Shown: positions 3,245 to 53,548, numbered from the stretch's first letter. The stretch: DNA of 64,000 nucleotides from an uncultured Methanosarcinales archaeon (GCA_964344235.1 CAYFMJ010000001.1:283020-347019), one strand, 5' to 3'. Numbers and translations are program-made. The notes: a model not told the origin generated them from the sequence alone.

Positions 3245-3838
3245 ATGGGCAGGAAGAAGCGATTTAAAGTTGATTCTAAGAAGGCTATGGCGTGGTTTGT
3301 CATTTTCATCATGGCTTTTGGGGTTCTCGGTTTAGTTGGCGGGGGACTTGTCGGCTTAGGCAATGGTCAGGATTCTGCATATGGTGTGGAGGAGTATAAC
3401 GGTTTTACGTTTACAAGAGATTATAATCATCAATGGATTGTGGAAGTCAATGGACAGAATTTTGGGTTTAGCTATTTCCCAACAGAATTAGAAAATATTA
3501 TTTTGCCCGAGACAATGTCTGGTGTACTGGGTGCTGAGAAAGTGTATCTTGGTTTTATGCCAGAGGATGAAATCGATGTGACATTGTATCGAAATGTGTT
3601 GCGGTCAGTGCTGGCGTTACGGGGCAAATTTGCTCCCGATGCGTGTATGGTAGATGAGGGGTGTGGTGATCTTCCGCTGCTGGATTGTGAAGTAAGCGAA
3701 GGGATTGTGTTACAGCATAGTGAGGATGTCGTGTTGAGTTCTGAGGGCAAATGCGTGGTTGTTGAAGCACCAAATGCATTTGAGTTGCAGAAAATAACAG
3801 AAAGGATTATATATACGTTTCTTGGTGTGATGAATTAG
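3245..3838 (+). CDS. hypothetical N-terminally membrane-anchored protein immediately upstream of aglB
   Basis: 197 aa. It has a basic N-terminus followed by a single hydrophobic helix (AWFVIFIMAFGVLGLVGGGLVGLG). The rest is acidic/soluble with several Cys. It ends 12 nt before aglB. Confidence 0.5.
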   Translation: MGRKKRFKVDSKKAMAWFVIFIMAFGVLGLVGGGLVGLGNGQDSAYGVEEYNGFTFTRDYNHQWIVEVNGQNFGFSYFPTELENIILPETMSGVLGAEKVYLGFMPEDEIDVTLYRNVLRSVLALRGKFAPDACMVDEGCGDLPLLDCEVSEGIVLQHSEDVVLSSEGKCVVVEAPNAFELQKITERIIYTFLGVMN

Positions 3839-3849: not shown

Positions 3850-6624
3850 GTGGATGATTCTGAAATCCGTGAAAAGAGAGAGAAATTAGTACAAAATTTT
3901 AAAGGTTTCTTTAGTTCTGCCAGTGAGAATGAAGCTGATCTTAAAGAACAACGGGAAAAAGTTATAGGTACTCTAAAACAGAAAACACATTGGCTGATTG
4001 GTTTAGTATTGGTAGGAATTATCTGGTTTACTTCAAAGTTGCGATTACAAAACTTACCTCTTCTGAAAGATATTACAACGGGAAAAGAAGTGCCACTGGC
4101 GCTGGATCCACATCTATTTTTGAAATACGCACGGCAAATTGTTGAGAATGGAGCGATGGTTGCACATGATGCTGCACGGTTTGTTCCAGTAGGGACGTCC
4201 ACAGTGAATTATGTGTTTATGAGTTCATTTATTGCGTATTTGTATAAATTTATTCATTTCTTTTTCCCGTCTGTGACGTTGGAATATGTTACAGTTATTT
4301 ATCCTGTTATCTGTTTTGCAATAGCGTTGGGCTTCTTCTTTTTACTTGTGAGAAGATTATTTGATTGGAAAGTGGGTTTGCTAGCAACTCTATTCTTAGG
4401 GGTTGTACCTGCGTTTTTACACAGAACGATGGCTGGTTTCTCTGACCACGAGGCGTTAGGTGTTATGCTGATGTTTATGGCGATGTATTTCTATGTGTTG
4501 GGTTGGCAGGCAAAAGGTATGAAGAAGACACTTGGGTGGGGTGTTTTAGCTGGATTGTTTACAGGTTTCATGGGTCTAACGTGGGGTGGTTGGAAGTTCT
4601 TAATCTTGATCATTAGTATCTTTGTGTTGATTGAATTTTTCTTCGATAAGATTGGGAAAAAAGATGTATATCAATATGTGGCGTGGGTTGTTGCTCTTGT
4701 TCTTGTGACAACAGTGTGGATCCCAATGTTTAGTATTAGTTTATTGTTGAGTTCGTTTACTACGGGGATTGCGTTTTTGGTATTATTTATGTTGTTAGTT
4801 CATTTGGCTATTGTGAAGTATAATGTGTTAAGGATTAAGCAAAAGGTTGCAGGGAAAATGCCATTAAGTGTGGCGACGTTTGTGATTAGTTTTGTGTTGG
4901 GAATTCTGTTACTTGGAGTGATTGTAGGACCAAGTGCGCTTTCTCATAAAGTAGAAGAGATTAGTGACAATTTATTACATCCATTAGGAAATGATCGATG
5001 GCAATTAACGGTAGCGGAACAACACCAACCATATTTCGTTGATTGGGTAGCACAGTTTGGCCCGAACTGGTTCTCTGTGCCGTTGTTCTTAACATTGTTT
5101 ATTGTTGGGTCAGTTATTTTATTTCATGCAATGGTGCGGCGTAATAAGAATAGTTCTTTGTTAACGGGCGCGTATGTGTTATTTATCTTAGCATTTATCT
5201 TAAGTAGACACTCTGCAGGTAGCATATTTAATGGGGAAAGTACGATTTCAAAAGTTGTATACTTAGGAAGTTTAGCTGTGTTTGCATTGCTGGCAGTGAT
5301 ATTTTACTTTAAGTCGTTCTATAAAAACCAAGAAGAGTACGAAAAGATTTTAGCATGGGAGAAGAAGTTTATTTTTGTATTAGTGTGGTTCTTAATTATG
5401 GTAATTGCAGCTCGTGGAGCTGTTCGGTTGTTGTTTATTTTCGCCCCAATTACAGCATTAATGGCGGCGTATGCAGTTGTACGTTTAGGGGAGATGGCGT
5501 GGAATGTTAAGACGCAGGTGTGGAAGTATGTTGCGTTGACCGTTTTAGTGTTGGTTGTATTTAGTCCGTTTGCATTTCCTGCACAGGGAATTGTTCCGCA
5601 ATTTACTGAAACGACGTCATCACAAGCAAAGTTTTCCGGTCCATCGTATAACCAACAGTGGCAGGTAACTGGAAGTTGGGTACGAGAGAATGTTCCTGAA
5701 GATGCGGTGTTTGGTCATTGGTGGGATTATGGGTATTGGGTGCAGAATGGTTTTGGAAAAGCTACAGTATTAGATGGAGCGAATAAAATTAAATATTGGA
5801 ATTATTTGATGGGAAGACATGTTTTAACAGCACAAACACAGGAAGAAGCTCTTGAATTTTTGAAAGTACATGACACGACACACTACTTGATTGTTTCTGA
5901 CGAGATTGGGAAATATACAGCGTACTCAAGCATTGGTTCTGACGAGAATTTTGACCGGTTTAGTTGGATTAATGTCTTTGGGTTGAATCCACAGGGAACG
6001 CAGGAGACTCGTGATAAAACAATTCTCATGTACCAAGGGGGTTATGCTCTTGATGATGATTTTGTCTGGGAGGGAAAAGTATATCCTCGCCAAGGTGCAG
6101 GAATTGGAGCAGTGTTCTTACCGATGCAGCAGGTTGAACAGGTTGTTAATGGTGAAGCCGTTCTTACGGGGACGTTTGAGCAGCCAATGATTGCATTGGT
6201 TCATGGGAATGAAAGAGTTGATTTACCTCTAGAATGTATTTATGTTAATGGGCAGATGATCTACTTTGAGCAGCCAGGATATAACGGTTGTTTCAGACTC
6301 ATGCCAACTTTAGCAGGTGATGGGAGTGTGGAGAATCCAATTGGCGCAGGTTTATTTGTTTCTGAGGAAGGTGTTAAAGCACTGTGGACGAATTTGTATA
6401 TTTTCGAAGGAAATAACCCTCGCTACGATACGTCAGCATTTGAGTTGATATATGGGGAAGATGGAGTTTATGCACCTTTGTCGTTGTATCAGAGTAGGAT
6501 TGTTGGACCTCAGAAGATTTGGCAAATTAATTATCCTGCAGGGTTTACGGTTGATGAAGAGACAACTGCGAAGTATCTTGGTGGGAATGAATTATTGCCA
6601 GGTTATTTCTATGATGTTAATTAG
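3850..6624 (+). CDS. aglB: archaeal oligosaccharyltransferase AglB (STT3 family, GT-C)
   Basis: 924 aa. A polytopic N-terminal half is followed by a soluble C-terminal domain. It carries the hallmark WWDYG motif (GHWWDYGYW) and an archaeal-type DK motif ~60 aa downstream (IVSDEIGKYTAY). Confidence 0.9.
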   Translation: MDDSEIREKREKLVQNFKGFFSSASENEADLKEQREKVIGTLKQKTHWLIGLVLVGIIWFTSKLRLQNLPLLKDITTGKEVPLALDPHLFLKYARQIVENGAMVAHDAARFVPVGTSTVNYVFMSSFIAYLYKFIHFFFPSVTLEYVTVIYPVICFAIALGFFFLLVRRLFDWKVGLLATLFLGVVPAFLHRTMAGFSDHEALGVMLMFMAMYFYVLGWQAKGMKKTLGWGVLAGLFTGFMGLTWGGWKFLILIISIFVLIEFFFDKIGKKDVYQYVAWVVALVLVTTVWIPMFSISLLLSSFTTGIAFLVLFMLLVHLAIVKYNVLRIKQKVAGKMPLSVATFVISFVLGILLLGVIVGPSALSHKVEEISDNLLHPLGNDRWQLTVAEQHQPYFVDWVAQFGPNWFSVPLFLTLFIVGSVILFHAMVRRNKNSSLLTGAYVLFILAFILSRHSAGSIFNGESTISKVVYLGSLAVFALLAVIFYFKSFYKNQEEYEKILAWEKKFIFVLVWFLIMVIAARGAVRLLFIFAPITALMAAYAVVRLGEMAWNVKTQVWKYVALTVLVLVVFSPFAFPAQGIVPQFTETTSSQAKFSGPSYNQQWQVTGSWVRENVPEDAVFGHWWDYGYWVQNGFGKATVLDGANKIKYWNYLMGRHVLTAQTQEEALEFLKVHDTTHYLIVSDEIGKYTAYSSIGSDENFDRFSWINVFGLNPQGTQETRDKTILMYQGGYALDDDFVWEGKVYPRQGAGIGAVFLPMQQVEQVVNGEAVLTGTFEQPMIALVHGNERVDLPLECIYVNGQMIYFEQPGYNGCFRLMPTLAGDGSVENPIGAGLFVSEEGVKALWTNLYIFEGNNPRYDTSAFELIYGEDGVYAPLSLYQSRIVGPQKIWQINYPAGFTVDEETTAKYLGGNELLPGYFYDVN

Positions 6625-6639: not shown

Positions 6640-7347
6640 TTATGTTGTTTTCTTCTTCCCTACCACAATTACGTTAAAACACCAGTTGGGGAAGACTTGA
6701 AATGGTTTGAGAAGAAAGTATAGCCATCCGGTGTACTGGGGAAAGAGTTGTGTGAGTTGGAACAAAACAGGTATGGTTGCTGAGAGTCCGTGTTTCGCTT
6801 CGATTGTTTGATGCTTTTCCAGCATTCTATAATATTCCCAAATCGGCCTATCGCCGGGATGGTAGGAAACTTTGGCAGTGCGTAATAATCTCCCGAGAAA
6901 CATGAATGAAAATCGTGATGACAAATGGGCAAGATTAGGAATACTCCAAATCATTTTTCCAGATGGTCTAAGGATACGTGTCAGTTCTTTGACAAGTGTT
7001 TCTTGTTGGTCTAATTGGAAATGTTCTATTACATCCAGGCATAGGATTATATCGAAGCTGTTATCTTCAAAGGAATTGTTGAGGATATCATCTTGCTTCA
7101 CGTATTCTGAGCCATAAAATGCGTCAATACCAATTATGTCGTAGCCTTTGTCTTTGAAGTGTTGAACGAGTAACCCCTGACCGCAACCAGCGTCAAGAAT
7201 TTTTGTGTCTTTTGGCAGTGTGTTAAGAAATGATGTGATGTATTTCATCTTCGCGACGAATGTGTGGCGGTAAGACCATTTCTTGAACGTCCATTGTGGG
7301 TTGATTTTCTTGAGGTGTTCCCCCGAGTAAAGTTTTTCGTAGTTCAT
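6640..7347 (-). CDS. class I SAM-dependent methyltransferase
   Basis: 235 aa. Motif I is ILDAGCGQGLL and the post-I acidic residue is IIGIDAF. It sits 20 nt downstream of the B12-rSAM gene on the same strand. Confidence 0.75.
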   Translation of the reverse strand: MNYEKLYSGEHLKKINPQWTFKKWSYRHTFVAKMKYITSFLNTLPKDTKILDAGCGQGLLVQHFKDKGYDIIGIDAFYGSEYVKQDDILNNSFEDNSFDIILCLDVIEHFQLDQQETLVKELTRILRPSGKMIWSIPNLAHLSSRFSFMFLGRLLRTAKVSYHPGDRPIWEYYRMLEKHQTIEAKHGLSATIPVLFQLTQLFPQYTGWLYFLLKPFQVFPNWCFNVIVVGKKKTT

Positions 7348-7366
7348 TGTGTTTGTAGAATAAAAT

Positions 7367-9079
7367 TCACTTCTCCTCGCTTAATACGTTAATTTGCGTG
7401 CCGGGAAGAACACCTTTGTTTTGTTTGTGGATGGAGTAGTTTTTTCGAAGAAAGTTGTATATGTGCTTTCCGAGACGCGTTCCCATAGCGATACCTCGTA
7501 ATTTTATGTACCGATCGTTATCTCGGGCAATCCAGTAGATTAGGGTGCCCAGTTTCTTGCCAAACCGATATTGTAAAAATGATTTGTTGAACACTGCACG
7601 GCCTTTCTTTAATGCTTTCACCCGCTCTTTGAAACGGAATTCTCGTGTTTCATAGACTGGCTGGCCGATTTTTGTGGTGGTGTCTTTCAGGTACTCCTCT
7701 GGTTGCCGTAAGAAGCGGGCGCGTCCAGTTTTTTCTTGTTCTCGAATCCATTTATACACATCTGTTCCAGGATAGGGGATCATGTTTGAGAACATTGCAT
7801 AGTCGCAGGTTTTGAGGATTTTCTTCGCAAATTTCACGGAATCGAGCGCTCGTTCATAGGTTTCTTCAGGATGGCCAACAATAAAGTTAACAGCATGTTT
7901 CAAGCCAACTTTCTTTGTTAGGGCAGATGTTTCTTCAATTTTTTTGAGTGTGGTTGCTTTCTTAATTGTTTTAAGAATGTAGGGGTTACCTGTCTCTAAC
8001 CCATAGGAAACGAAGACGCAACCCGCTTGTTTCATTAATGTAAGGAGTTCTTCATCAACCCTGTCTGCTCGAATGCCGTTTGCACAGTTCCAGTCAAACC
8101 TCATGCCGCTATCGATAATCATGCGGCAGACTTGTTTTGCTCGCTTAATGTCCATGGTAAAGACATCATCAACGAATTCAAAGAACCTGTATCCTTTATC
8201 GTACCAATGCTTGATCTCCGCTAAAATGTGGTCTGGTCCTCGTGGCCGGAAGGCTTGTCCCATACTTACTTTTACGTCGCAAAATGTACAACTATACGGA
8301 CAACCCCGTGAAGTTTCGATCGGGAGCCGCTTATCTACGTAGTGAATATACTTTGGAAGTTCAAATTTCTCATACGCAGGGTAGGGAAGTTCGTCCAGTT
8401 GCCAGTTTAATTTTCTAATTTGGTTTTCAATAATTTGCCCTTTGCCATCTCTCCAAATTAGACTTTTAATTTTGCCTAGTGGCCAGCCTGCACAAAGTTG
8501 GAAGAGAGGGATTTCTCCATCTCTTGTGATGCCGAAGTCAGCATTGGTTTTTTCCAGTGCTTCTCCTTTAACTGTTGAGATGTGGGCTCCACCAAGAATT
8601 AATGGGAGTTTGGTTCTTGTTTTAATTTCATTAATGACTTTATAGGTTCGCACGAAGTCGAAGCTAAACATTGTTACGCCAATAAGATCGGCTTTGAACT
8701 CTTCAGCTTTCTTTACAATGTCATCGATGTTGTAGCCAAGTTGTTGATCGATGACTGCGGTTTCAAAACCTTCGCGATCAAGATAGGCCATTAACATTGC
8801 TATCCCTAAATGGGGATTGAGTGCTTTTCCATACGCGGCAGAAACGTTAGTAACAACGAAGAGAATCCTGTTAAAACGGCGTTTGTACTCCGGACGTTTA
8901 ACATCTTCTTCGTTCTGTGGAACGTATTGTGATTTGATTTTTTCTTGCGCTGCTTTGATTTTCTCAAGAATTGCTTCTTTTTCAGAATCTGGTTTGTTTG
9001 AACTAGGGATTCCGGTGAGGTTTTCTGTAGAAGAATCTTGTGGTACAGTTGCTGTTTCTGGAGGAGTCATGAGAATCAC
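7367..9079 (-). CDS. B12-binding (cobalamin) radical SAM enzyme, class B
   Basis: 570 aa. The N-terminal B12-binding Rossmann-like region reads ILFVVTNVSAAYG...GIAMLMAYLDREGF. The radical SAM cysteine triad is CPYSCTFC. Confidence 0.8.
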   Translation of the reverse strand: MILMTPPETATVPQDSSTENLTGIPSSNKPDSEKEAILEKIKAAQEKIKSQYVPQNEEDVKRPEYKRRFNRILFVVTNVSAAYGKALNPHLGIAMLMAYLDREGFETAVIDQQLGYNIDDIVKKAEEFKADLIGVTMFSFDFVRTYKVINEIKTRTKLPLILGGAHISTVKGEALEKTNADFGITRDGEIPLFQLCAGWPLGKIKSLIWRDGKGQIIENQIRKLNWQLDELPYPAYEKFELPKYIHYVDKRLPIETSRGCPYSCTFCDVKVSMGQAFRPRGPDHILAEIKHWYDKGYRFFEFVDDVFTMDIKRAKQVCRMIIDSGMRFDWNCANGIRADRVDEELLTLMKQAGCVFVSYGLETGNPYILKTIKKATTLKKIEETSALTKKVGLKHAVNFIVGHPEETYERALDSVKFAKKILKTCDYAMFSNMIPYPGTDVYKWIREQEKTGRARFLRQPEEYLKDTTTKIGQPVYETREFRFKERVKALKKGRAVFNKSFLQYRFGKKLGTLIYWIARDNDRYIKLRGIAMGTRLGKHIYNFLRKNYSIHKQNKGVLPGTQINVLSEEK

Positions 9080-9146
9080 ACCTATTGATTACGAATTATG
9101 GTTTAACCCACCTATTTTGTTGTGTGGAAGCTCGGTGTTTAGACCG

Positions 9147-9154
9147 TTTAAATA
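9147..9154 (+). promoter_or_regulatory. TATA box (TTTAAATA) for the ferredoxin gene
   Basis: Its centre lies ~23 nt upstream of the ATG at 9174. Confidence 0.4.
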
Positions 9155-9173
9155 GTTTACGGATGTTTTTTTA

Positions 9174-9470
9174 ATGAAATGTGTTTTTGTGTGCAGAATG
9201 GAGAAGAAATATCGGCTTGTATATCGGAAGAGTGAATGTATTGGAGCAGGAGCGTGTGAAGCAGCGTACCCCGAAGCGTGGTTTTTTGATAAAGAAACAA
9301 GTATTGCGACATTGAAGTCGGAGAAGACGATAAGAACCGATGAGCGAGAGGAGTTGGAGTTTGGCCAGGAAGAGTTTGATAAATTCTTAGAATCAGCACA
9401 AGTGTGTCCTGTAATGATTATTGAGGTGTTTGATCAGGAGACGGGGAAGCGGGTTTTTCCTGAGGAGTAA
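9174..9470 (+). CDS. small single-cluster ferredoxin (Pyrococcus Fd-like fold)
   Basis: 98 aa. The motifs ECIGAGACEAAYPEAWFF ... AQVCPVMIIEV follow the C-x2-G/D-x2-C ... CP spacing of archaeal 7-8 kDa ferredoxins. The gene is convergent with the flippase gene and overlaps its 3' end by ~50 nt. It has its own TATA box. Confidence 0.55.
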   Translation: MKCVFVCRMEKKYRLVYRKSECIGAGACEAAYPEAWFFDKETSIATLKSEKTIRTDEREELEFGQEEFDKFLESAQVCPVMIIEVFDQETGKRVFPEE

Positions 9471-10722
9471 CTGGTGGGTTGTTGTTTTGTATTCGTAATT
9501 TCTTAATTCCATAAATGTTTAGTGCGATTTTTATGATAATAGTGATCGCTGTAGCGATTGGAGCTCCAATGATGCCCCATGCTGAAATGAGTAAGACGTT
9601 GAGTAATGTGTTGATAATCAGTGAGATTGCGAAGTCTGCTACGAGAATTTTCATGTACAGTGGAGAGTATTCGTTTTCTCCCACAAAAATAGAGTTGAAG
9701 TAGGAGTAAAGAACAAGAAGTGTTGAGGAAATAACTAGCGCAATTGGTAAGTATGTTGCGGAGTAGCCTGCACCATATAAAATCGGAACGAGGATGTAGC
9801 TTCCTGCCAAAACGAGAAGTGCGAATGGGATAAGTAATTTGAAGATTCTTTTAAGAGATTGTTTTAACCTATAATGATGAATTGCAGCCATCGGCACAAC
9901 GACCATCGGAAAGACATAGCCCAGTAATCGGATGGTGTTAGTGATAGAACCGTATGCTGAATACAAACCAAGACTGGTGAAATCAACGAGGTATTTAATC
10001 GTGATGGCGTCAGCAAAGCGAAGTGAGTAGAAGCTTACCTGCATTAGGAATAATGAGAGGGCGAGGATGAAGAATTTCTTGAAAGGTGTTGATTGTTGTA
10101 ATTGTGGTTTGGGAAAATGTTTGAGAATTTGTGGAATGCTGGCAACGGTTGCAATGAGGAGTGCTATGGAAAAGCTGATGAGAACATAGGTGAATGGGAA
10201 AAGATACAATGCAAGTAAGACGATGAATAGTATGACAAATATCCTGTTGAGTAATGAGTACATGGAAGCACTGACAAATTTCTGCCAACCACGTAGTATG
10301 TTGTAGGAGATGTAATGGAGTGTGTAGAACACTATGTAGAGAGTAAATGCGAGGTTGAAATATGGAAGTTGTGGGTTAAGATGGGTATATGTAGTGATGG
10401 TTATGGTGATCAGGATGAAGAAAATCGTAAATGGAGTTAAGAGGGTGAGTGCGTGTCTCAGTGAATTTCGTAATCGATGTGGGTTTTTGATAATAATTTG
10501 AGTGATTGCATCAGGAATACCAAAGGAGGTGAATAAAAACACGAGGCTCACAAGGCTGAAGAAGTATGTGAAAATTCCTAATTCTTCTTGTCCGTAGAGG
10601 CGGGCAATAAGAATTTTTATGAAGATGATGGTTAAGGCAATAAACCCATAGATGAAGAATGTTTTGAATAAATGGGCGCGTGTTTCGCCACCAAGAGTGA
10701 GTTTTTTAATTTTTTGAATCAT
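9418..10722 (-). CDS. Wzx-like oligosaccharide flippase (MOP/polysaccharide biosynthesis protein family)
   Basis: 434 aa with ~12 predicted TM helices throughout. The C-terminal tail is low-complexity and Pro/Ser/Thr-rich. Confidence 0.65.
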   Translation of the reverse strand: MIQKIKKLTLGGETRAHLFKTFFIYGFIALTIIFIKILIARLYGQEELGIFTYFFSLVSLVFLFTSFGIPDAITQIIIKNPHRLRNSLRHALTLLTPFTIFFILITITITTYTHLNPQLPYFNLAFTLYIVFYTLHYISYNILRGWQKFVSASMYSLLNRIFVILFIVLLALYLFPFTYVLISFSIALLIATVASIPQILKHFPKPQLQQSTPFKKFFILALSLFLMQVSFYSLRFADAITIKYLVDFTSLGLYSAYGSITNTIRLLGYVFPMVVVPMAAIHHYRLKQSLKRIFKLLIPFALLVLAGSYILVPILYGAGYSATYLPIALVISSTLLVLYSYFNSIFVGENEYSPLYMKILVADFAISLIINTLLNVLLISAWGIIGAPIATAITIIIKIALNIYGIKKLRIQNNNPPVTPQEKPASPSPDQTPQ

Positions 10723-10736: not shown

Positions 10737-11264
10737 TTATTCTCTTTTTGTTTTTCTAGTTTTTGTTTTTGCAAGGAATGAATGGATTTCTTCATGAATA
10801 GTGTGGGGTGTGGGCGAGTATGAGGCAAAGTTGTGTGTCTCGGCTTTCTGAATACACTCAGCGAGTTGTTGTGGTGTGTCACAATATAGTAGGCCGTCTG
10901 TTTCTTGTGCAATGGCTTGCAGAAACTCTACTTGGTGGCGCGGATCAGTTCTGTTTCTGTTGGGGATACCAATTAATTTCTTTCCCATTTTGAGAATTTC
11001 AAAGATACAACCGGGTCCACCGTGACTGATGATTACGTCTGCTTGCTGTTCATACTTTGTTAATGGTGCTTCAAACGTAAACCAGTTGCAATGTTGTGGT
11101 TTGTATTCTCCATGGCCGAGTTGGATAAGAACGTCGTCTTTGATAACTCCCGTGGATTTTAATCTATCAATCTCTTTGACGAGTTCTTCAAATTTTCCGT
11201 TTCCTACTGTGACGAAGAGCATTGTGTTGAATGTCTGATGGGGATTATGACAACCTCCCTGCAT
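10737..11264 (-). CDS. Alg13-like UDP-GlcNAc transferase catalytic subunit (GT28 C-terminal domain)
   Basis: 175 aa. MLFVTVGNGKFEEL...VISHGGPGCIFEIL is Glyco_tran_28_C-like. It is adjacent to and overlaps the Alg14-like gene. Confidence 0.75.
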   Translation of the reverse strand: MQGGCHNPHQTFNTMLFVTVGNGKFEELVKEIDRLKSTGVIKDDVLIQLGHGEYKPQHCNWFTFEAPLTKYEQQADVIISHGGPGCIFEILKMGKKLIGIPNRNRTDPRHQVEFLQAIAQETDGLLYCDTPQQLAECIQKAETHNFASYSPTPHTIHEEIHSFLAKTKTRKTKRE

Positions 11265-11769
11265 GTTTGGCTTTTGGATAGACTTTTTTCATACTTTCCC
11301 ATTGAACGAGGAAGAGATCAGATACAGGGTAGACGAGTTTTCCAGTTTGTGATTTATGGTGGACCCGCACCCATGACTCAATAAAGATTGTTTTGATACC
11401 CATAACTTTAGCAATCCAGAATAATGGGATGGCAGCGGAAGGGCCGGCACTAATAAACACATCTGGTTTTGCTTTTCGTAAGATATTGAAGCCTTGAATA
11501 GTTGTGGGGAACATGTTGAGGACGACTCTAAAGAGGGATTTATCTTTCATTAACCGTGGATTTTTAATGGTGTGAACTTTCCCGGGATGGTGGATTTTCT
11601 TTGCAGATGTTTGGTCATCATGGCCTACGAGGTATTGAAATTGGTGAGTTGGATCGAGATTTTTTGTTAGTTCCAGTATTTGTGAAGTGTGGCCGCCCAT
11701 CCCTAGGTGAATAAGGAGGTTTTTACTGCTGTTTAGCGTGGTACTCATAAAATGGTCTCGGTTCGACAA
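11245..11769 (-). CDS. Alg14-like membrane-anchoring subunit of a bipartite UDP-GlcNAc transferase
   Basis: 174 aa. HLGMGGHTSQILEL ... FISAGPSAAIPLFWIAKVMGIKTIFIESWVRV are conserved Alg14 blocks. Confidence 0.75.
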   Translation of the reverse strand: MSNRDHFMSTTLNSSKNLLIHLGMGGHTSQILELTKNLDPTHQFQYLVGHDDQTSAKKIHHPGKVHTIKNPRLMKDKSLFRVVLNMFPTTIQGFNILRKAKPDVFISAGPSAAIPLFWIAKVMGIKTIFIESWVRVHHKSQTGKLVYPVSDLFLVQWESMKKVYPKAKHAGRLS

Positions 11770-11812
11770 GATTTATAAAGATTTGGAAAAAGATTTTGGA
11801 AATGGTGGTTCT

Positions 11813-13564
11813 ATGTTGAGGGCGGCAAGGAAAACTCCGTTGGAAGAAGGAGAGTGTAGGACGATTAGCGCTACTTCTGGGAACGTTACTGAGAATGGAT
11901 CCTTAACAGAGACACAGACCGTTTTTGGAGCTACAAGTGAACTTGAGGATGTTACGAAAGAAACCCCTCCCCTGGAAACACAAAGAATAAAAGAGCATAA
12001 ATTTAATTTTCCTAAAGGAAAGACAATTGATTTTTTAAAGGATAAGTATCACCTTATTCTGGTAGCAGTTTTAGTTTTGGTTCTGCTCACACGCTTGAAA
12101 TATATTGGTCAAGAAAGTCTATGGAATGATGCAGCTGTTCACTTGTGGTACGTTATAAAAGTTACTAAAGAACCACTGTTTATACTTAGTCATGAATATC
12201 TGCTTGGAGATTATGCAATCCCACAAACAATTATGACTCTTTTTTACTTTGTTGTTAAAGATGCTCTCACTGCGGGGAAGATTGTTGCAGTTTTATATTC
12301 TTTAGTGGGAGTTGTCTTAATTTACCTTTTAGGCTCAGAACTTAAAAGTAAATTCGTTGGGGTCATGGCGGCTATCCTTTTAGCTTTTAATCATATCTTT
12401 TGGTTTTACAGCGTAAGGCCTTTGGGAGATTCACCGCTAATGGTTAGTACTATTTTTATCTTCTATTGCATGGTTCGGTTAGAAAAAGAAAAAACAATGA
12501 TCTGGGGTTTTCTCACGGGGACCGCCTTCGTTCTCGCACTTTTCCATAAGGTCCAATCCTCTATTTTTATCCTTGGTCTTGTTCTTTACTATATTCTTTT
12601 TAAGCGTAAAGAAATGATTAGAAACAAGCCAACGCTTGTTTCTTGGTTGATACCCGTAGGGACAATTGTGGTGGGGCACCTTGTCGCTCAGATCTTTTAC
12701 GGCCGAGATTTGCTTGGAAGATTATTCGGCTTAATGATTTATTTAAGAGGAATGCCTTTTGGATTTGAGGCTGCTGGTATGCTGGAATGGGTCTTTTCTT
12801 GGTATTTAATCCCGTTTGTTTTCTTGGGGGCTTTGTTCGTTGTTTTTTATAAATATAAGAGATTTTATCCGCTACTTGTTTTAGGGCTTTATTACTGGTT
12901 TTACTTTGAGGTTAATGTTGATAATACGCAAGACAGATATGTTTTACCTCTCCTTCCTATAGCAATATTGTTAGCAGTATTCGCGATAGAAGAGATCGCA
13001 TCATACCTCTCGATGGTCTTCCCGAAGAAAGTGAAATCTATCCTAAAGCATGTGATTGTTATTGCTGTTGTTTTGCTCTTAGCTTTGAATTATTATCAAG
13101 TTGGTGATCCTTTGATTTATAATAAATCGTTTAGTTACACTGGCCATGCAGAAGCAGGTCAGTGGATGAAAGAGAATATTCCTGAGGAGACCCCGATTTT
13201 TGCTGGTTCGTATCGTTTTGTTCGTTTGTTTACTGAGCGTGAGTTTGGTGGGCCGGCGGAAGAATCTTTTGGAGGATCAATTTGGAACCTACGGGCAGAA
13301 AAAGTATATGCATCAAATCGGACTGCCTTTGAGGAGGATCTTTTGCGTCTTTCTCAAGAGAGCGATGTCTATTTGGAAATTGACCACATTGAATACACTC
13401 AACCAAGTTGGTATTATCCATTGACTGAAGATAGCGTTAGCTACTTCGCTTCTCTTGGTTTTAACTTAGTGCATGTTGTCAATGGAAAAGTGCTGACGAA
13501 CGAGGGGGTTATGGAAACACCGATGATTTTTATCTTTAAAAAAGATAAAGTAGAGTTAGAATGA
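11813..13564 (+). CDS. GT-C fold membrane glycosyltransferase (ArnT/PMT-like, GT39/GT83-type)
   Basis: The ORF is open from 11738, but that would overlap the divergent Alg14 gene; the Met at 11813 is preceded by GGTGG. About 11 TM helices are followed by a ~200-aa soluble C-terminal domain. The stop overlaps the start of the CE4 gene. Confidence 0.6.
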   Translation: MLRAARKTPLEEGECRTISATSGNVTENGSLTETQTVFGATSELEDVTKETPPLETQRIKEHKFNFPKGKTIDFLKDKYHLILVAVLVLVLLTRLKYIGQESLWNDAAVHLWYVIKVTKEPLFILSHEYLLGDYAIPQTIMTLFYFVVKDALTAGKIVAVLYSLVGVVLIYLLGSELKSKFVGVMAAILLAFNHIFWFYSVRPLGDSPLMVSTIFIFYCMVRLEKEKTMIWGFLTGTAFVLALFHKVQSSIFILGLVLYYILFKRKEMIRNKPTLVSWLIPVGTIVVGHLVAQIFYGRDLLGRLFGLMIYLRGMPFGFEAAGMLEWVFSWYLIPFVFLGALFVVFYKYKRFYPLLVLGLYYWFYFEVNVDNTQDRYVLPLLPIAILLAVFAIEEIASYLSMVFPKKVKSILKHVIVIAVVLLLALNYYQVGDPLIYNKSFSYTGHAEAGQWMKENIPEETPIFAGSYRFVRLFTEREFGGPAEESFGGSIWNLRAEKVYASNRTAFEEDLLRLSQESDVYLEIDHIEYTQPSWYYPLTEDSVSYFASLGFNLVHVVNGKVLTNEGVMETPMIFIFKKDKVELE

Positions 13565-15523: not shown

Positions 15524-15552
15524 GAGGAATATTTGGCGGATGATAAAGTCTA

Positions 15553-35122: not shown

Positions 35123-35260
35123 GAAAGGTAAGAATTATCCTTAAGACATTGCCCAACAATCTCTATGTTCTGTGACAAGTCTCTAAAAAATCCCGAGTGA
35201 TGTTACGTTGTTCTATAGTTCCACAACGCTTATTAGTTTTCCTTTATCAGGTGGCAGATT

Positions 35261-36367: not shown

Positions 36368-36395
36368 GCAAGTTGAGTATTCCTTGGGGTGTTCT

Positions 36396-46324: not shown

Positions 46325-46364
46325 TTTCTTAATATTTATAAATAGCTGACATTTTTTTTGGAGG

Positions 46365-51188: not shown

Positions 51189-52898
51189 ATGGTTGAAAGT
51201 CAAAATGAGGAAATGTTAGGGACAGTGAAAACTTCTGGTTCGACGCCGAGCGGTGATAGTAGCCCTACAGTTCCTACAGTAAATGTTGCAGTGAACGCCC
51301 CTACAATTGATGGTGGCGTTCAAACACCCATTGCTCCTGCGGCGTCAAACGGAACTTCATTTGCAAATAATAGTGCTTCTGCAACAACTGAGAATGAAAA
51401 ATTTAGAGTGCTCTTAATCCACGCAAATTCTTCTATGGATACCTTAATTCCACCCAACTTGGCAACTCTATCTGCTTATTTGAAACAAGCGGGGAATGAA
51501 GTGAAACTATTTGATACAACGTTTTACAATACCCGTGGATTTACCGGTGATGATTCTCGAGTTAGAACCCTGCAGGTCAAAGAAACTAAGTTTGCTGATT
51601 TAGGAATTCACTTTGAGACGACGGATATGGTGGAAGATTTCATAAAAATAGTTGAGGAATACCAACCTAATCTTGTTGGATTATCTGCCGTTGAGTTGAC
51701 ATTCCAAATGGGGATGAATTTGATCAACGCTATGAAAGAGATCAGACCAGATATCCCGGTTATTGTAGGAGGCTCACATGCTATTACATCGCCTGAGGCA
51801 GTTGCTGCGGAGAAAAATGTTGATCTTATTTCAATCGGAGAAGCTGAAAAATCCTTTGTAGAGTTATGCACTAAATTACAGAACGGCGAAGATTATACTC
51901 AAATTCTGAACATGTGGGTTAAAAAGGATGGCCAAATTTACAAAAATAAGTTGGGAAATCTGATTGCAATGGATGATCTTCCTCGCCAAGATTGGGAAAT
52001 TTTTGATAAACGAAGAATCTACAAACCAATGTCGGGGACTATTGGCAGAACTGGTTGTTTTGAGCTTACGCGCGGCTGTGTTTTCTCTTGCACTTTTTGT
52101 ATCAATGAATTCTTAAATAAGACGCACAAACATCGAAGTTATCGAGAGAAAAGTATCCCTAAATTTATCGAGGAAGTGCAATATTTCAAAGAGAAATATG
52201 GGATTGAATATGTTTATATTCTCGCAGAGATGTTTCTTCCAACTTCTAAAGAGAGAGTACGAGAGTTTTCCCGCCTGTGGAAAGAGAAGGTTGGTCTTCC
52301 ATTTTGGTGTCAGGTAAGGGTTGAGGGCGTTGATGAGGAAAATGCTAGACTGCTTGAAGAAGCGGGTTGTGTATCAATCTCGGCTGGTATTGAGAGCGGT
52401 AATGAAGAATTTAGAAGAAATGTTATTCATAGAATGATGAGTAATGAAAAAATAATTGAAGCGTTTAGAATTCTCAAGAGCACAAAAATGCAAATTTCGG
52501 GCAATAGCATCATTGGGTTCCCTGGAGAAACTCGCGAACAAATATTTGATACTATTGAGCTTAATAGAAAATTAGATTTGGATAATATTATGATTCATGT
52601 CTTTAATCCTTATCGAGGTACAACTTTGTATGATGTTAGCGTTGAAAGAGGGTACATTACTCCCAACCACATGGCGGGTGATTACAGGGCAGATTTTACA
52701 TTAAACATGCCACACATTACAAAGGAAGAAATCCTTGGACTACAAAGAACTTTTAACATGTACGTCAAATTTCCAAGAGAAATGTGGCCCGAAATAAAAA
52801 TTGCGGAAAGGATGGATGAAGAAGGGAACAAGAAATTTGCAGAACTGAGTAAAAAGTTTAAAGAAGAATTCTTTGCAAAACCATTAATGATGCATTAA
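51189..52898 (+). CDS. B12-binding radical SAM enzyme, class B (Fom3/PhpK/GenK-like methyltransferase candidate)
   Basis: 569 aa. The N-terminal ~60 aa are low-complexity Ser/Thr/Pro-rich. The B12-binding domain is FRVLLIHAN...LSAYLKQAGNEVKLFD. The radical SAM motif is TRGCVFSCTFCINEF. Paralogous to 7367..9079. Confidence 0.8.
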   Translation: MVESQNEEMLGTVKTSGSTPSGDSSPTVPTVNVAVNAPTIDGGVQTPIAPAASNGTSFANNSASATTENEKFRVLLIHANSSMDTLIPPNLATLSAYLKQAGNEVKLFDTTFYNTRGFTGDDSRVRTLQVKETKFADLGIHFETTDMVEDFIKIVEEYQPNLVGLSAVELTFQMGMNLINAMKEIRPDIPVIVGGSHAITSPEAVAAEKNVDLISIGEAEKSFVELCTKLQNGEDYTQILNMWVKKDGQIYKNKLGNLIAMDDLPRQDWEIFDKRRIYKPMSGTIGRTGCFELTRGCVFSCTFCINEFLNKTHKHRSYREKSIPKFIEEVQYFKEKYGIEYVYILAEMFLPTSKERVREFSRLWKEKVGLPFWCQVRVEGVDEENARLLEEAGCVSISAGIESGNEEFRRNVIHRMMSNEKIIEAFRILKSTKMQISGNSIIGFPGETREQIFDTIELNRKLDLDNIMIHVFNPYRGTTLYDVSVERGYITPNHMAGDYRADFTLNMPHITKEEILGLQRTFNMYVKFPREMWPEIKIAERMDEEGNKKFAELSKKFKEEFFAKPLMMH

Positions 52899-53548
52899 TA
52901 GGCTGGGCTGAAATCAAGTTCGTCATCCTGGATATAGGCAATCTTTTTTTGCAGTGCAATATATGCTTTCTGCAGCTCCCGACCTAGATAGGCGGCGTGG
53001 TCATATCGAGAAAGAAGGTTTTCTTTAATGGCAGTTTGGTAAATCTCAAGTGGTTTCGTGCCAATGATTTTCACACTGACTTTGTTGACTGTAGGACAAA
53101 ACCCCACATGAATCTCCTTCTTCTGATGATCTACTTTGATTAAAAAATAGCCTTTTTGATCCATCATAAATTCTTTGCGATCATCATATTGAGCGTGGAT
53201 TACTCTTAATGCGGTGGTATCAACCTCTGTTTTCACAACTTTTGTATTATCCTCTTTGTTGATTACCTGGATGGCATTTACGGGACAAGCCTCAGCAGCG
53301 GCAATAAGCTTTTGGGCCTCTTGGGGTGTACAGACAAGACTTCTAACACTATTCTGGTTTTCCTGATGACCTTTGACAAGTTCTGCCGTGTTTTCTTTTA
53401 TGAAAAAATTATTTGGGTCAATCCGTTGACAAACCCCGTTAGCAACACATTTTTTCTGATCTAATAGTACTTGAAAGGATTTAGCTTTTTCTTCTGAGGT
53501 TTGATGTTTATTCTGTTCTGTTGATTGTTGTTCTGTCATGTAAAACAC
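52895..53548 (-). CDS. ferredoxin-domain protein (N-terminal single-cluster Fd paralogous to 9174..9470) fused to an uncharacterised C-terminal domain
   Basis: 217 aa. KKCVANGVCQRIDPNNFF ... LVCTPQE ... AEACPVNAIQV has the same Cys spacing as the 9174 ferredoxin. The C-terminal ~110 aa are unassigned. Its stop overlaps the rSAM stop in a convergent arrangement. Confidence 0.55.
   Translation of the reverse strand: MFYMTEQQSTEQNKHQTSEEKAKSFQVLLDQKKCVANGVCQRIDPNNFFIKENTAELVKGHQENQNSVRSLVCTPQEAQKLIAAAEACPVNAIQVINKEDNTKVVKTEVDTTALRVIHAQYDDRKEFMMDQKGYFLIKVDHQKKEIHVGFCPTVNKVSVKIIGTKPLEIYQTAIKENLLSRYDHAAYLGRELQKAYIALQKKIAYIQDDELDFSPAY

What the first reader, a model, noticed from the sequence alone, without database searches (positions are those of the whole stretch)
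6640..9470. B12-radical SAM + class I methyltransferase + dedicated ferredoxin directly downstream of aglB
A class-B (cobalamin-binding) radical SAM enzyme (CPYSCTFC) is co-oriented with a SAM methyltransferase. It is flanked by a stand-alone single-cluster ferredoxin that has its own TATA box. Class-B rSAMs methylate unactivated carbon (GenK, Fom3, TsrM). Placed beside the OST, this suggests C-methylation (plus O-/N-methylation) of a glycan sugar, a modification not described in archaeal N-glycans. The ferredoxin is a plausible dedicated reductant.
Basis: inference. Interest (0 to 1): 0.6.

Follow-up and report, generated by a model that had tools for sequence, protein, structure and literature searches.

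The report
B12 radical-SAM glycan-tailoring module beside AglB
Next to the enzyme that attaches sugar chains to proteins, this DPANN (Woesearchaeota-type) archaeon carries a vitamin-B12-dependent radical enzyme, a conventional methyltransferase and a small private ferredoxin, and the radical enzyme belongs to an uncharacterised family that sits in sugar-chain gene clusters in both archaea and bacteria and is sometimes fused to glycosyltransferases, so it probably adds an unusual, as yet undescribed, modification to cell-surface glycans.

Summary
Window 6640-9470 encodes a class I methyltransferase (MT), a B12-binding radical SAM enzyme (rSAM, CPYSCTFC) and a small single-cluster ferredoxin. 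The pair lies tail-to-tail with aglB, not in its operon.

Comparative evidence supports a glycan-tailoring role:
- DPANN relatives at 45-81% identity keep an Alg14-Alg13-flippase-rSAM-MT cassette, in most cases beside STT3/AglB.
- More distant relatives in Halobacteriota, Omnitrophica, Hakubella and Nitrospinales sit among GT2/GT4/epimerase genes.
- Family members occur fused to a class I MT (twice, independently). A sister group is fused to two GT4 glycosyltransferases.

The rSAM matches no curated B12-rSAM family. Its predicted fold matches only class-B structures, at 15-21% identity.

The ferredoxin family is tiny. It lay beside the rSAM in all 7 contexts checked but is absent from most of the rSAM family, so it is a lineage-specific dedicated partner.

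C-methylation itself is untested. A Fom3-like phosphonate role is unlikely for this enzyme. The window holds a second B12-rSAM (51189-52898), near a cytidylyltransferase-PEP mutase gene. Relatives of that second enzyme are fused to a phosphonopyruvate-decarboxylase-like domain.

No paper found describes such an enzyme in glycan pathways. Verdict: new variant of a known kind, interest about 0.6.

The parts
3850..6624 (+). AglB/STT3 oligosaccharyltransferase (924 aa, WWDYG motif present)
   Evidence: PF02516 STT3 64 bits and TIGR04154 103 bits. Convergent with the MT, stop codons 15 bp apart.
6640..7347 (-). Class I SAM-dependent methyltransferase (235 aa), partner of the rSAM
   Evidence: Methyltransf_23/11/25 hits, with no curated NCBIfam family reached. 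Orthologs follow the rSAM in L001, L089, L092 and L097-L099. P0061 is an in-frame rSAM::MT fusion whose MT part is an ortholog (216 bits).
7367..9079 (-). Cobalamin-binding (class B) radical SAM enzyme, 570 aa from GTG 9079. Probable start is ATG 9070 (567 aa). It has a family-specific basic C-terminal helical domain (residues ~455-550).
   Evidence: PF02310 + PF04055. CX3CX2C invariant. AF2 pLDDT 87, with Foldseek top hits all class-B structures. All NCBIfam families far below cut-off.
9080..9197 (.). Divergent intergenic region between the rSAM and the ferredoxin, with a TATA-like TTTAAATA at 9147-9154 on the + strand
   Evidence: Read directly from the sequence. The element lies 44-51 nt upstream of the conserved ferredoxin start ATG 9198. 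Promoter function not tested.
9198..9470 (+). Small single-cluster ferredoxin (90 aa; the ORF opens at 9174), three conserved Cys CxxAxxC...CP. It overlaps the 3' end of the flippase gene.
   Evidence: Fer4_15 28.1 bits. Alignment with L089/L091/L092 homologs. 20 homologs in total, and all 7 contexts checked are beside the rSAM.
9418..10722 (-). Wzx-type flippase (Polysacc_synt), upstream member of the conserved cassette
   Evidence: PF01943 52 bits. Same position in L001, L089-L092, L094 and L097-L099.
10737..11264 (-). Alg13/EpsF/PssE-type glycosyltransferase subunit
   Evidence: PF04101 59.5 bits; NF041548 PssE 131 bits, above its cut-off of 120.
11245..11769 (-). Alg14/EpsE/PssD-type glycosyltransferase subunit (membrane/acceptor half)
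   Evidence: PF08660 101 bits; NF041549 PssD 142 bits, above its cut-off of 110.
11738..13564 (+). PMT_2 GT-C glycosyltransferase, divergent from the cassette. A PMT_2 GT-C gene takes the same divergent position in several relatives.
   Evidence: PF13231 40.7 bits. Same position in L090, L094, L097 and L098.
51189..52898 (+). Second, unrelated-family B12-rSAM of the same island (27% identity to the first). This is the likely phosphonate (Fom3-like) enzyme and is listed because it absorbs the main rival explanation.
   Evidence: PF02310 + PF04055. Relatives P0228/P0230 are fused to TPP_enzyme_N/C domains. L100 context is CT::PepM - unknown - TPP::rSAM - Fe-ADH. The two families separate cleanly by score.
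52895..53548 (-). Ferredoxin domain (same three-Cys type, CVANGVC...CP) fused to PterinBD-DUF4346, convergent with the second rSAM
   Evidence: Fer4_13 33 bits, Fer4_15 27 bits, DUF4346 73 bits. 26% identity to the first ferredoxin, E 1e-9.

Best explanation
The rSAM and the MT form a two-enzyme tailoring module of the pathway that builds the lipid-linked glycan which AglB transfers to protein.

Shown:
- The rSAM has class-B architecture: an N-terminal cobalamin domain, a CX3CX2C [4Fe-4S]/SAM core and a family-specific basic C-terminal cap.
- It belongs to an uncharacterised family that is embedded in glycan-assembly loci in archaea and bacteria. Members are fused to a class I MT, and a sister group is fused to GT4 glycosyltransferases.
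- In DPANN archaea it is the fourth gene of an Alg14-Alg13-flippase-rSAM-MT cassette.

Inferred mechanism:
- On the cytoplasmic face of the membrane, the early lipid-linked sugar or disaccharide made by the EpsE/EpsF-type Alg14/13 transferase, or its nucleotide-sugar precursor, binds under the basic C-terminal cap.
- The ferredoxin reduces the [4Fe-4S] cluster and cob(II)alamin.
- One SAM methylates cob(I)alamin. A second SAM is cleaved to a 5'-deoxyadenosyl radical, which abstracts H from an unactivated sp3 carbon of the sugar or of its N-acyl/O-alkyl substituent.
- The substrate radical then takes the methyl group from methylcobalamin.
- The class I MT adds an ordinary O-, N- or carboxyl-methyl group to the same residue.
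- The modified glycan is flipped and transferred by AglB.

The ferredoxin is a dedicated but lineage-restricted electron donor.
For: Domains and motif.

Fold: AF2 pLDDT 87, and the best PDB matches are exclusively cobalamin-type rSAM folds (MgmA, TsrM, OxsB, AprD4, CysS, TokK).

Synteny in DPANN:
- L089, L092, L097, L098 and L099 keep the full order Alg14-Alg13-flippase-(Fdx)-rSAM-MT-(AglB).
- L090 and L091 are cut after the rSAM.
- L001 (64% identity), L094 (51%) and L006 (45%) keep the cassette without the ferredoxin.

Other lineages:
- Halobacteriota L008: GT2-rSAM-MT-GT4.
- Omnitrophica L004: GT2-rSAM::MT-GT4.
- Hakubella L095: MT-GT2-rSAM.
- Nitrospinales L040: MT-rSAM among GT2/GT4 genes.
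- Archaeal MAGs L012 and L014 place a sister-group rSAM directly beside STT3.

Counts: 5 of 5 non-redundant core-family loci and 5 of 5 sister-group loci have a GT within 5 kb. 5 of 5 core loci have an MT within 1.5 kb.

Fusions: P0061 and P0077 (rSAM::MT). L009 and L010 (B12-rSAM::GT4::GT4, 1239 aa).

Ferredoxin: only 20 homologs found, and 7 of 7 contexts (the window plus six loci) are divergent from the rSAM. A second rSAM and ferredoxin-domain pair in the same window shows the pairing recurs.

The C-terminal 90 residues are strongly basic and helical, which fits a (pyro)phosphate-bearing or membrane-bound substrate.

Established knowledge:
- Class-B rSAMs GenK and GenD1 C-methylate sugars.
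- EpsE/EpsF/Alg14-13 add the second sugar to a lipid-linked sugar (PMC8993221).
- Methylation at the lipid-linked stage is known in Halobacterium (PMC11407970).
Against: - No chemistry was tested. Class-B architecture does not prove methyl transfer: OxsB, BchE and AprD4-type relatives do other reactions.
- The best PDB sequence match is the diol dehydratase AprD4, over the rSAM core only.
- The rSAM is equidistant (15-21% identity) from all solved class-B enzymes, so no substrate can be inferred by homology.
- The sister group that carries the GT4 fusions mostly lacks an adjacent MT (1 of 5).
- P0061 has no contig on record, so that fusion could be an assembly or frameshift artefact.
- The ferredoxin is absent from L090, L001, L094 and from all 88 loci fetched before the close Woesearchaeota relatives.
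- DPANN archaea are not known to make cobalamin, so cofactor supply is unexplained.
- Neighbourhood annotation of the 80 GTDB loci used seed proteins and not Pfam, so those counts are lower bounds with no random control.
Confidence: 0.5

Rival explanations
1. Cooperative alkyl extension, as in CysS or CndI. The class I MT first makes an O-methyl (or N-methyl) group on the sugar. The B12-rSAM then methylates that methyl carbon one or more times, giving ethyl, isopropyl or larger ether groups.
For: The rSAM and a class I MT are adjacent in all core-family loci and have been fused twice independently, which suggests consecutive action on one site. CysS is among the sequence and fold matches. That CysS extends a methoxy group installed by a conventional O-MT is from my own knowledge.
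Against: Similarity to CysS is no higher than to other class-B enzymes (17% identity). To my knowledge, O-ethyl or O-isopropyl sugars have not been reported in prokaryotic glycans. The sister group with GT4 fusions usually lacks the MT.
Confidence: 0.12
2. The rSAM performs non-methylating radical chemistry on a glycan sugar: 1,2-diol dehydration/deoxygenation (AprD4-like), ring contraction (OxsB-like), epimerisation or C-C coupling. The MT acts independently.
For: The best PDB sequence hit is AprD4, a sugar diol dehydratase (E 7e-22). OxsB and AprD4 are among the top fold matches. Glycan context as for the main explanation.
Against: AprD4 lacks bound cobalamin and matches only the rSAM core, whereas this protein has a well-scoring B12-binding domain. 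Per the 2026 review PMC12931638, C-methyltransferases are the most represented group among B12-dependent rSAMs. The recurrent MT partner gives the module a methylation theme.
Confidence: 0.15
3. Fom3-like role. The rSAM methylates CMP-2-hydroxyethylphosphonate (or another phosphonate) made by the cytidylyltransferase::PEP mutase and Fe-ADH encoded 33 kb away, for a phosphonate decoration of the glycan.
For: The window encodes a true PEP mutase fused to a cytidylyltransferase (TIGR02320 391 bits, above cut-off) and an Fe-ADH. In L001, a stand-alone cytidylyltransferase, a phosphonate-binding ABC transporter and a Capsule_synth ortholog lie immediately upstream of the cassette. PhpK-type P-methylases are among the weak NCBIfam hits.
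Against: - No PEP mutase homolog was found in any of 99 loci fetched around rSAM and ferredoxin homologs.
- The window has a second B12-rSAM (51189-52898) much nearer the phosphonate genes. Relatives of that enzyme are fused to a TPP decarboxylase domain and sit between CT::PepM and Fe-ADH.
- The two rSAM families are cleanly separate.
Confidence: 0.05
4. The module modifies the lipid carrier (dolichol/polyprenol) or a membrane lipid and not the sugar.
For: The top NCBIfam hits include lipid-modifying B12-rSAMs: HpnJ 143 bits, the ladderane-lipid rSAM 121 bits and HpnR 72 bits. There is a basic C-terminal domain suited to a membrane surface. UppP/BacA lies in the same island.
Against: All those scores are far below the family cut-offs (360-650 bits). 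Fusion to two GT4 domains and tight coupling to GT2 genes point to the glycan. The family occurs in both bacteria and archaea, whose carriers differ.
Confidence: 0.08
5. The function is unrelated to glycans. Examples are the 'anaerobic Mg-protoporphyrin IX monomethyl ester cyclase' (BchE) named by JGI's automatic annotation, or a RiPP maturase. Adjacency to aglB would then be fortuitous.
For: JGI names for several homologs. Weak NCBIfam hits: ApyD 143 bits, BchE 107 bits.
Against: The scores are 4-5 fold below the cut-offs (750 and 481 bits). Glycan context is conserved across two domains and there are GT/MT fusions. A DPANN archaeon has no bacteriochlorophyll pathway.
Confidence: 0.03

Closest known systems
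GenK / GenD1 (gentamicin) and related aminoglycoside class-B radical SAM C-methyltransferases
   Same: Cobalamin-binding domain plus rSAM core. They act on unactivated sp3 carbons of sugars. This is the chemistry proposed here.
   Different: - They act on soluble secondary-metabolite pseudo-oligosaccharides in actinomycete antibiotic clusters, not on cell-surface or N-glycan precursors.
- They have no fusion to MT or GT domains and no dedicated ferredoxin.
Fom3 (fosfomycin; CMP-2-hydroxyethylphosphonate C-methylase)
   Same: Class-B rSAM methylating an sp3 carbon of a nucleotide-activated substrate. The window also carries Fom1-like (CT::PepM) and FomC-like (Fe-ADH) genes.
   Different: The phosphonate context belongs to the second rSAM of the window (TPP-decarboxylase fusions). 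The rSAM of this finding never co-localises with PEP mutase within 6-10 kb.
CysS (cystobactamid) / CndI: B12-rSAMs that extend a methoxy group installed by a conventional O-MT
   Same: Functional pairing of a class I methyltransferase with a class-B rSAM. CysS is a detectable sequence and fold relative.
   Different: The substrate is an aryl methoxy group on a carrier-protein-bound intermediate. Identity is 17%. No glycan context.
MgmA (Gln C-methylase of methyl-coenzyme M reductase) and TsrM
   Same: Best structural matches (Foldseek E 8.5e-24 and 1.9e-23, 21% identity). Same class-B architecture.
   Different: Protein or tryptophan substrates. TIGR04014 scores 88 bits against a cut-off of 360. 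The C-terminal domain differs.
AglP (Haloferax volcanii) and the transient methylation of dolichol-linked oligosaccharide in Halobacterium salinarum
   Same: SAM-dependent methylation of an archaeal N-glycan sugar at the lipid-linked stage. This is the precedent for the class I MT half of the module (PMC11407970 for Halobacterium; AglP from my own knowledge).
   Different: These are heteroatom (O- or ester) methylations by conventional MTs only. No radical SAM or cobalamin enzyme has been implicated in them.

Membership tests
Class B (cobalamin-dependent) radical SAM enzymes | N-terminal cobalamin-binding Rossmann domain | tested here: met
   PF02310 57.4 bits against a cut-off of 32.1, residues 89-191. 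The AF2 model shows a beta-alpha Rossmann domain over residues 71-218.
Class B (cobalamin-dependent) radical SAM enzymes | Radical SAM core with a CX3CX2C cluster motif | tested here: met
   PF04055 80.9 bits. C260, C264 and C267 are invariant in 60 homologs.
Class B (cobalamin-dependent) radical SAM enzymes | Overall fold resembling solved class-B enzymes | tested here: met
   The 17 best Foldseek PDB matches are MgmA, TsrM, OxsB, AprD4, CysS and TokK (E 1e-24 to 1e-16). MiaB/RimO follow.
Class B (cobalamin-dependent) radical SAM enzymes | Actually binds cobalamin and transfers methyl via methylcobalamin | not testable with these tools
   Requires purified, reconstituted protein.
GenK/GenD1-type sugar C-methyltransferases | Phylogenetic clustering with GenK/GenD1 | not tested
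   Reference sequences were not obtainable with the tools, and no NCBIfam model for them appeared among the 25 of 32 matched families that were listed.
Fom3-like phosphonate C-methyltransferases | Co-localisation or fusion with PEP mutase, phosphonopyruvate decarboxylase or Fe-ADH | tested here: not met
   0 of 99 loci around homologs contain a PEP mutase. The TPP-decarboxylase fusions and the CT::PepM/Fe-ADH context belong to the other rSAM family of the window.
BchE (anaerobic Mg-protoporphyrin cyclase; JGI's name for homologs) | Score at or above the TIGR02026 cut-off | tested here: not met
   107.3 bits against a cut-off of 481.
HpnJ / HpnR / ladderane-lipid B12-rSAMs | Score at or above the curated cut-offs | tested here: not met
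   142.7 vs 577.6, 72.1 vs 650, and 120.9 vs 360 bits.
ApyD / RiPP C-methyltransferases | Score at or above the curated cut-offs | tested here: not met
   143.5 vs 750 and 74 vs 282 bits. No precursor-peptide context was seen in any locus map.
Single-cluster ferredoxins (Fer4_15/Fer4_13) | Domain match and cluster-ligating Cys pattern | tested here: met
   Fer4_15 28.1 bits against 22.4. The pattern C-x2-A-x2-C...C-P is conserved in 4 of 4 aligned homologs. Only three Cys are present, so the type is [3Fe-4S]-like and not classical CxxCxxC.
Class I SAM-dependent methyltransferases | Rossmann-fold SAM-binding domain with motif I | tested here: met
   Methyltransf_23/11/25/12 hits above their cut-offs, and the motif 'ILDAGCGQG'. 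No specific NCBIfam family was reached; the best is UbiG at 45.8 vs 103 bits.

The most novel reading that the evidence does not exclude
A previously unrecognised family of cobalamin-dependent radical SAM enzymes spans both prokaryotic domains. It is physically coupled to glycosyltransferases and class I methyltransferases, and it installs C-methyl (or longer alkyl) groups on lipid-linked cell-surface glycans, including the AglB-dependent N-glycan of DPANN archaea. This would be radical, B12-dependent sugar alkylation in primary envelope biogenesis as opposed to antibiotic biosynthesis. One Woesearchaeota subclade has in addition evolved a private three-Cys ferredoxin to drive it.
Probability: 0.45. 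Interest if true: 0.75.

Novelty: new variant of a known kind. Interest (0 to 1): 0.6.

Why it matters
- **New modification type.** All sugar modifications assigned so far in archaeal N-glycans and in most bacterial surface polysaccharides are made by polar chemistry: O/N-methylation, sulfation, acylation and amidation. A B12/radical SAM enzyme wired into glycan assembly would predict sugar structures, such as C-methyl or extended alkyl groups, that have not been looked for.
- **Defined enzyme family.** It would give glycoproteomics and NMR studies a specific family to connect with unexplained +14/+28 Da masses.
- **Wider substrate range.** It would extend class-B rSAM substrates to lipid- or nucleotide-linked envelope precursors.
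- **Reductant.** The MT and GT4 fusions and the dedicated ferredoxin supply ready-made clues to partners and to the physiological reductant, which is unknown for nearly all class-B enzymes.
- **Cofactor dependence.** It implies that genome-reduced DPANN archaea depend on externally supplied cobalamin for envelope biogenesis.

Tried and rejected
1. The metagenome-contig scan with the single protein gave only 5 loci. They were useful for synteny but too few for statistics.
2. The exhaustive representative-library search with the family-specific C-terminal 130 residues returned only 39 weak hits and no informative fusion lengths. It gave no family-size estimate.
3. Foldseek against afdb50 was unavailable.
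4. Seven literature searches and term searches in three reviews (2022, 2024, 2026) found no report of a B12-rSAM in N-glycan, O-antigen, capsule or EPS pathways. This is absence in the held library only.
5. A phylogeny against GenK, GenD1, Fom3, MoeK5 and PoyC could not be made because reference sequences were not retrievable. NCBIfam scores and PDB sequence and fold searches served as a proxy.
6. The Fom3-like idea for this rSAM was raised by the CT::PepM gene at 42237-43538 and rejected on context and fusion evidence.
7. The BchE annotation given by JGI was rejected.
8. No phosphonopyruvate decarboxylase was found in the window by tblastn.
9. Archaeal promoter elements could only be read by eye, because the promoter tool covers sigma-70 only.


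Full report
**1. What is in the sequence**

The ORF scan and domain searches place the following genes on the minus strand:
- 6640-7347: a 235-aa class I SAM methyltransferase (MT). Methyltransf_23 scores 59.9 bits and Methyltransf_11 56.3 bits, with motif I 'LDAGCGQG'.
- 7367-9079: a 570-aa protein with a B12-binding domain (PF02310, 57.4 bits, cut-off 32.1) and a radical SAM core (PF04055, 80.9 bits) carrying CPYSCTFC.

The two genes are 19 bp apart.

On the plus strand, ORF 9174-9470 matches Fer4_15 (28.1 bits, cut-off 22.4). Aligning it with three homologs moves the start to ATG 9198 (90 aa). Only three Cys are conserved, in the pattern C-x2-A-x2-C...C-P, which is the [3Fe-4S]-type variant of the single-cluster motif. 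A consensus-like TTTAAATA lies at 9147-9154, 44-51 nt upstream of that start.

aglB (3850-6624, +; STT3 domain, WWDYG present) ends 15 bp from the MT stop codon on the opposite strand. The module is therefore adjacent to aglB and convergent with it, not transcriptionally downstream.

Upstream of the rSAM on its own strand lie three further genes:
- a Wzx-type flippase (9418-10722);
- an Alg13/PssE-type subunit (10737-11264);
- an Alg14/PssD-type subunit (11245-11769).

The wider window from about 2.4 kb to at least 60 kb is a glycan-biosynthesis island. It contains UppP, three PMT_2 GT-C enzymes, a deacetylase, two FemAB-like proteins, DegT aminotransferases, UDP-GlcNAc 2-epimerase, NeuB, a CMP-sugar synthetase and GT2/GT4 enzymes.

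**2. What organism and family**

The rSAM has an identical database twin on a 412,874-bp contig. Relatives at 60-86% identity are named Woesearchaeota or Nanoarchaeota. A second tier at 38-54% identity comes from other archaea, Halobacteriota, Omnitrophica, Berkelbacteria and 'Ca. Hakubella'.

The family core is about 475 aa. Invariant residues include the cluster Cys and a family-specific C-terminal signature (P474, E477, T478, F481, and the R/K-rich helices 483-544). The Woesearchaeota proteins add a poorly conserved N-terminal extension of about 85 residues.

**3. Is it a member of a known B12-rSAM family?**

No. All 32 NCBIfam matches are generic and 3-5 fold below their cut-offs:

| Family | Score (bits) | Cut-off (bits) |
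|---|---|---|
| ApyD | 143 | 750 |
| HpnJ | 143 | 578 |
| PhpK | 131 | 600 |
| Ladderane-lipid rSAM | 121 | 360 |
| BchE | 107 | 481 |
| MgmA-type | 88 | 360 |

- PDB sequence matches are weak: AprD4 7e-22 over the core only, then 9ccb (identified as MgmA), CysS, TsrM, OxsB and TokK.
- An AlphaFold model built from 60 homologs is confident (pLDDT 87.2, pTM 0.86).
- Its 17 best Foldseek matches in the PDB are all class-B-type structures at 15-21% identity, followed by MiaB/RimO.
- Class-B architecture is therefore established. Subfamily and substrate are not.
- JGI's label 'anaerobic Mg-protoporphyrin IX monomethyl ester cyclase' for homologs is an over-annotation.

**4. Evidence that the enzyme works in glycan assembly**

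(a) Synteny in DPANN archaea.
- Loci at 73-81% rSAM identity (L089, L092) and the ferredoxin-anchored loci L097-L099 keep the order Alg14-Alg13-flippase-(ferredoxin)-rSAM-MT-(AglB convergent).
- L090 and L091 end after the rSAM.
- L001 (64%) keeps the order with small insertions: two small ORFs between the rSAM and the MT, and a PAPS synthase before STT3.
- L094 (51%) has Alg14-Alg13-flippase-rSAM-MT with overlapping stop and start codons.
- L006 (45%) has Alg14-Alg13-rSAM-rSAM-GT4-MT-flippase-(STT3 convergent).

(b) Other lineages.
- Halobacteriota L008: GT2-rSAM-MT-GT4.
- Omnitrophica L004: GT2-rSAM::MT-GT4, plus a second rSAM-MT pair, among epimerases and nucleotidyltransferases.
- Hakubella L095: DegT-GT2-epimerase-MT-GT2-rSAM.
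- Nitrospinales L040: MT-rSAM among GT2/GT4 genes.
- Archaeon L096: four rSAM paralogs with GT2, GT4, epimerases and a flippase.
- Two archaeal MAGs place a sister-group rSAM directly beside STT3 (L012, L014).

(c) Counts. Of the non-redundant loci with at least 6 kb of flank:

| Group | GT within 5 kb | MT within 1.5 kb |
|---|---|---|
| Core family (at least 590 bits to the family HMM) | 5/5 | 5/5 |
| Sister group (390-590 bits) | 5/5 | 0/5 (1/5 within 5 kb) |
| Remoter homologs | 25/54 | not assessed |

The last GT figure is a lower bound because annotation used seed proteins.

(d) Gene fusions.
- P0077 (Omnitrophica, 744 aa) is B12-rSAM::class I MT.
- P0061 is a Woesearchaeota-type rSAM fused in frame to an ortholog of the window's MT (216 bits). 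It has no contig on record, so this one could be an artefact.
- L009 (Alphaproteobacteria MAG) and L010 (Parcubacteria MAG) encode 1239-aa proteins with B12-binding, radical SAM and two GT4 glycosyltransferase domains.

Together these results tie the family to glycan assembly far more firmly than adjacency to aglB alone.

**5. The ferredoxin**
- A search of the 5.8-billion-protein collection found only 20 homologs (55-99% identity). The few with names are Woesearchaeota.
- Every context examined (the window, L089, L091, L092, L097, L098, L099) has it in the same place. It lies between the flippase and the rSAM and is divergently transcribed from the rSAM.
- It is absent from L090, L001, L094 and L006. 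No homolog occurs in any of the 88 loci fetched before the close Woesearchaeota relatives (L001-L088).
- It is therefore a dedicated accessory that was inserted into the cassette in one subclade, not a general requirement of the family.
- The window contains a second example of the pairing. A B12-rSAM at 51189-52898 is convergent with a 217-aa protein at 52895-53548. That protein's N-terminal domain is a ferredoxin of the same three-Cys type (26% identity, E 1e-9), fused to PterinBD-DUF4346.
- That these ferredoxins reduce the [4Fe-4S] cluster and/or cob(II)alamin is inference.

**6. The main rival raised by the surroundings**
- At 42237-43538 the window encodes a cytidylyltransferase::PEP mutase fusion (TIGR02320 391 bits, above its cut-off of 319.55), followed by an Fe-ADH. 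This is the Fom1/FomC pattern of fosfomycin biosynthesis, in which the class-B rSAM Fom3 methylates CMP-2-hydroxyethylphosphonate (established knowledge).
- I therefore tested whether the rSAM of the finding could be the Fom3 equivalent.
- No PEP mutase homolog occurs in any of 99 loci around homologs.
- Relatives of the second rSAM (53% identity) are fused to TPP_enzyme_N/C domains, which is phosphonopyruvate-decarboxylase-like (P0228, P0230).
- One such fusion lies in the order sulfatase - CT::PepM - unknown - TPP::rSAM - Fe-ADH - phosphodiesterase (L100).
- The two rSAM families are cleanly separated by score. The MT fusions fall in the first family, the TPP fusions in the second, and the GT4 fusions nearer the first.
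- The phosphonate role therefore belongs to the second rSAM, and the first is left with the glycan-core cassette.
- One caveat remains. In L001 a cytidylyltransferase, a phosphonate-binding ABC transporter and a Capsule_synth ortholog abut the cassette. The two modules are thus parts of one island.

**7. Most likely mechanism (inferred)**
- The EpsE/EpsF-type Alg14/13 pair adds the second sugar to a lipid-linked sugar (function of the family per PMC8993221).
- The class-B rSAM binds the phosphate-bearing substrate under its basic C-terminal cap. It uses one SAM to methylate cob(I)alamin and a second SAM to generate the 5'-deoxyadenosyl radical. That radical abstracts H from an unactivated carbon of the sugar or its substituent, and the substrate radical is quenched by methyl transfer from methylcobalamin.
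- The class I MT adds an O-, N- or ester methyl group.
- Wzx flips the product and AglB transfers it.
- Methylation at the lipid-linked stage has a precedent in Halobacterium (PMC11407970).
- Alternatives kept open: extension of an MT-installed methyl group to ethyl or isopropyl (CysS paradigm); non-methylating radical chemistry (AprD4- or OxsB-like); and carrier-lipid modification.

**8. Novelty**
- Reviews of cobalamin-dependent rSAM enzymes from 2022 and 2026, and a 2024 review of archaeal N-glycosylation, contain no mention of such an enzyme in glycan, polysaccharide or N-glycan pathways.
- Targeted full-text searches found none either.
- The enzyme class and the idea of radical sugar C-methylation are known from aminoglycosides.
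- What is new is the family itself, its wiring into envelope/N-glycan assembly across two domains, its MT and GT fusions, and the private ferredoxin.
- I rate it a new variant of a known kind, interest 0.6.

**9. Limits**
- No chemistry was tested.
- No tree against GenK, GenD1 or Fom3 was possible.
- Neighbourhood statistics rest on about 25 informative loci with no random control.
- Fetched flanks were at most 10 kb.
- Cobalamin supply in a DPANN archaeon is unexplained.

Noticed in passing
window 40436-53548: A phosphonate module sits inside the glycan island. Genes in order:
- MT 40436-41071(-)
- unknown 308-aa protein 41205-42131
- cytidylyltransferase::PEP mutase 42237-43538 (TIGR02320, above cut-off)
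- Fe-ADH 43636-44775
- second Wzx 44837-46324
- Capsule_synth-like 46365-47780
- sulfatase-like 47819-49525
- phosphodiesterase-like 49594-51075
- second B12-rSAM 51189-52898

Relatives of that second rSAM are fused to a phosphonopyruvate-decarboxylase-like TPP domain, within a Fom1/Fom2::Fom3/FomC-like gene order (L100). This suggests 2-hydroxypropylphosphonate-type decoration of a DPANN glycan. No TPP decarboxylase was found in the 64-kb window.
   Followed up: partly
window 52895-53548 (-); L096 5882-6259: A ferredoxin domain is fused to PterinBD-DUF4346 (similar to the C-terminus of MtrA and of dihydropteroate-synthase-like proteins) and lies convergent with the second B12-rSAM. A stand-alone DUF4346 protein also lies 0.7 kb upstream of an rSAM homolog in L096. 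DUF4346 may be a recurrent accessory of B12-rSAMs, perhaps for cofactor handling or reduction.
   Followed up: partly
window 3245-3838 (+): A 197-aa protein with no Pfam hit lies immediately upstream of aglB. A homolog holds the same position in L092 (112 bits). Unannotated 181-197-aa genes abut STT3 in L001, L006 and L099. This may be a conserved AglB partner.
   Followed up: partly
window 11738-16602: A PMT_2 GT-C gene overlaps the start of a polysaccharide deacetylase gene (13561-14496), an arrangement reminiscent of ArnT/ArnD. Two paralogous FemAB/Acetyltransf_6 genes follow (14468-15523, 15553-16602), which suggests amino-acid or acyl decoration of an amino sugar.
   Followed up: no
L031, L030, L026, L022, L096: Several bacterial and archaeal loci carry tandem arrays of four to seven B12-rSAM paralogs, often with GT genes nearby. 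This suggests extensive radical tailoring in some glycan or lipid clusters.
   Followed up: no
L004 7072-10235; L008 7090-9452; L095 6085-8497: In Omnitrophica, Halobacteriota and Hakubella, a GT2 gene (Glyco_tranf_2_2/2_3 type, 304-316 aa) overlaps the start of the rSAM gene. This suggests translational coupling of the rSAM to one particular glycosyltransferase. Orthology of these GT2s was not checked.
   Followed up: no
L001 65-4632: In a 64%-identity relative, three genes lie directly upstream of the Alg14 cassette: a stand-alone cytidylyltransferase (homologous to the CT domain of the window's PepM fusion), a phosphonate-binding ABC transporter and a Capsule_synth ortholog. This looks like scavenging of a phosphonate in place of synthesis.
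   Followed up: partly
L097 3076-3339; L001 11115-12899: The gap between the MT and STT3 accepts insertions: a ParE toxin gene in L097 and a bifunctional ATP-sulfurylase/APS kinase (PAPS synthase) in L001. The latter hints at sulfated glycans.
   Followed up: no
window 875-2104 (-): An ATP-citrate lyase/citryl-CoA synthetase beta-like protein (Citrate_synth_N plus Citrate_bind) lies at the edge of the window. This is unexpected for a genome-reduced DPANN archaeon.
   Followed up: no
window 34076-38161: NeuB-type nonulosonic acid synthase (34076-35122) and a CMP-sugar cytidylyltransferase (37469-38161) lie close together, with two APH-family kinases nearby (32959-33990 and 36396-37469). The glycan probably carries a sialic-acid-like sugar.
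   Followed up: no
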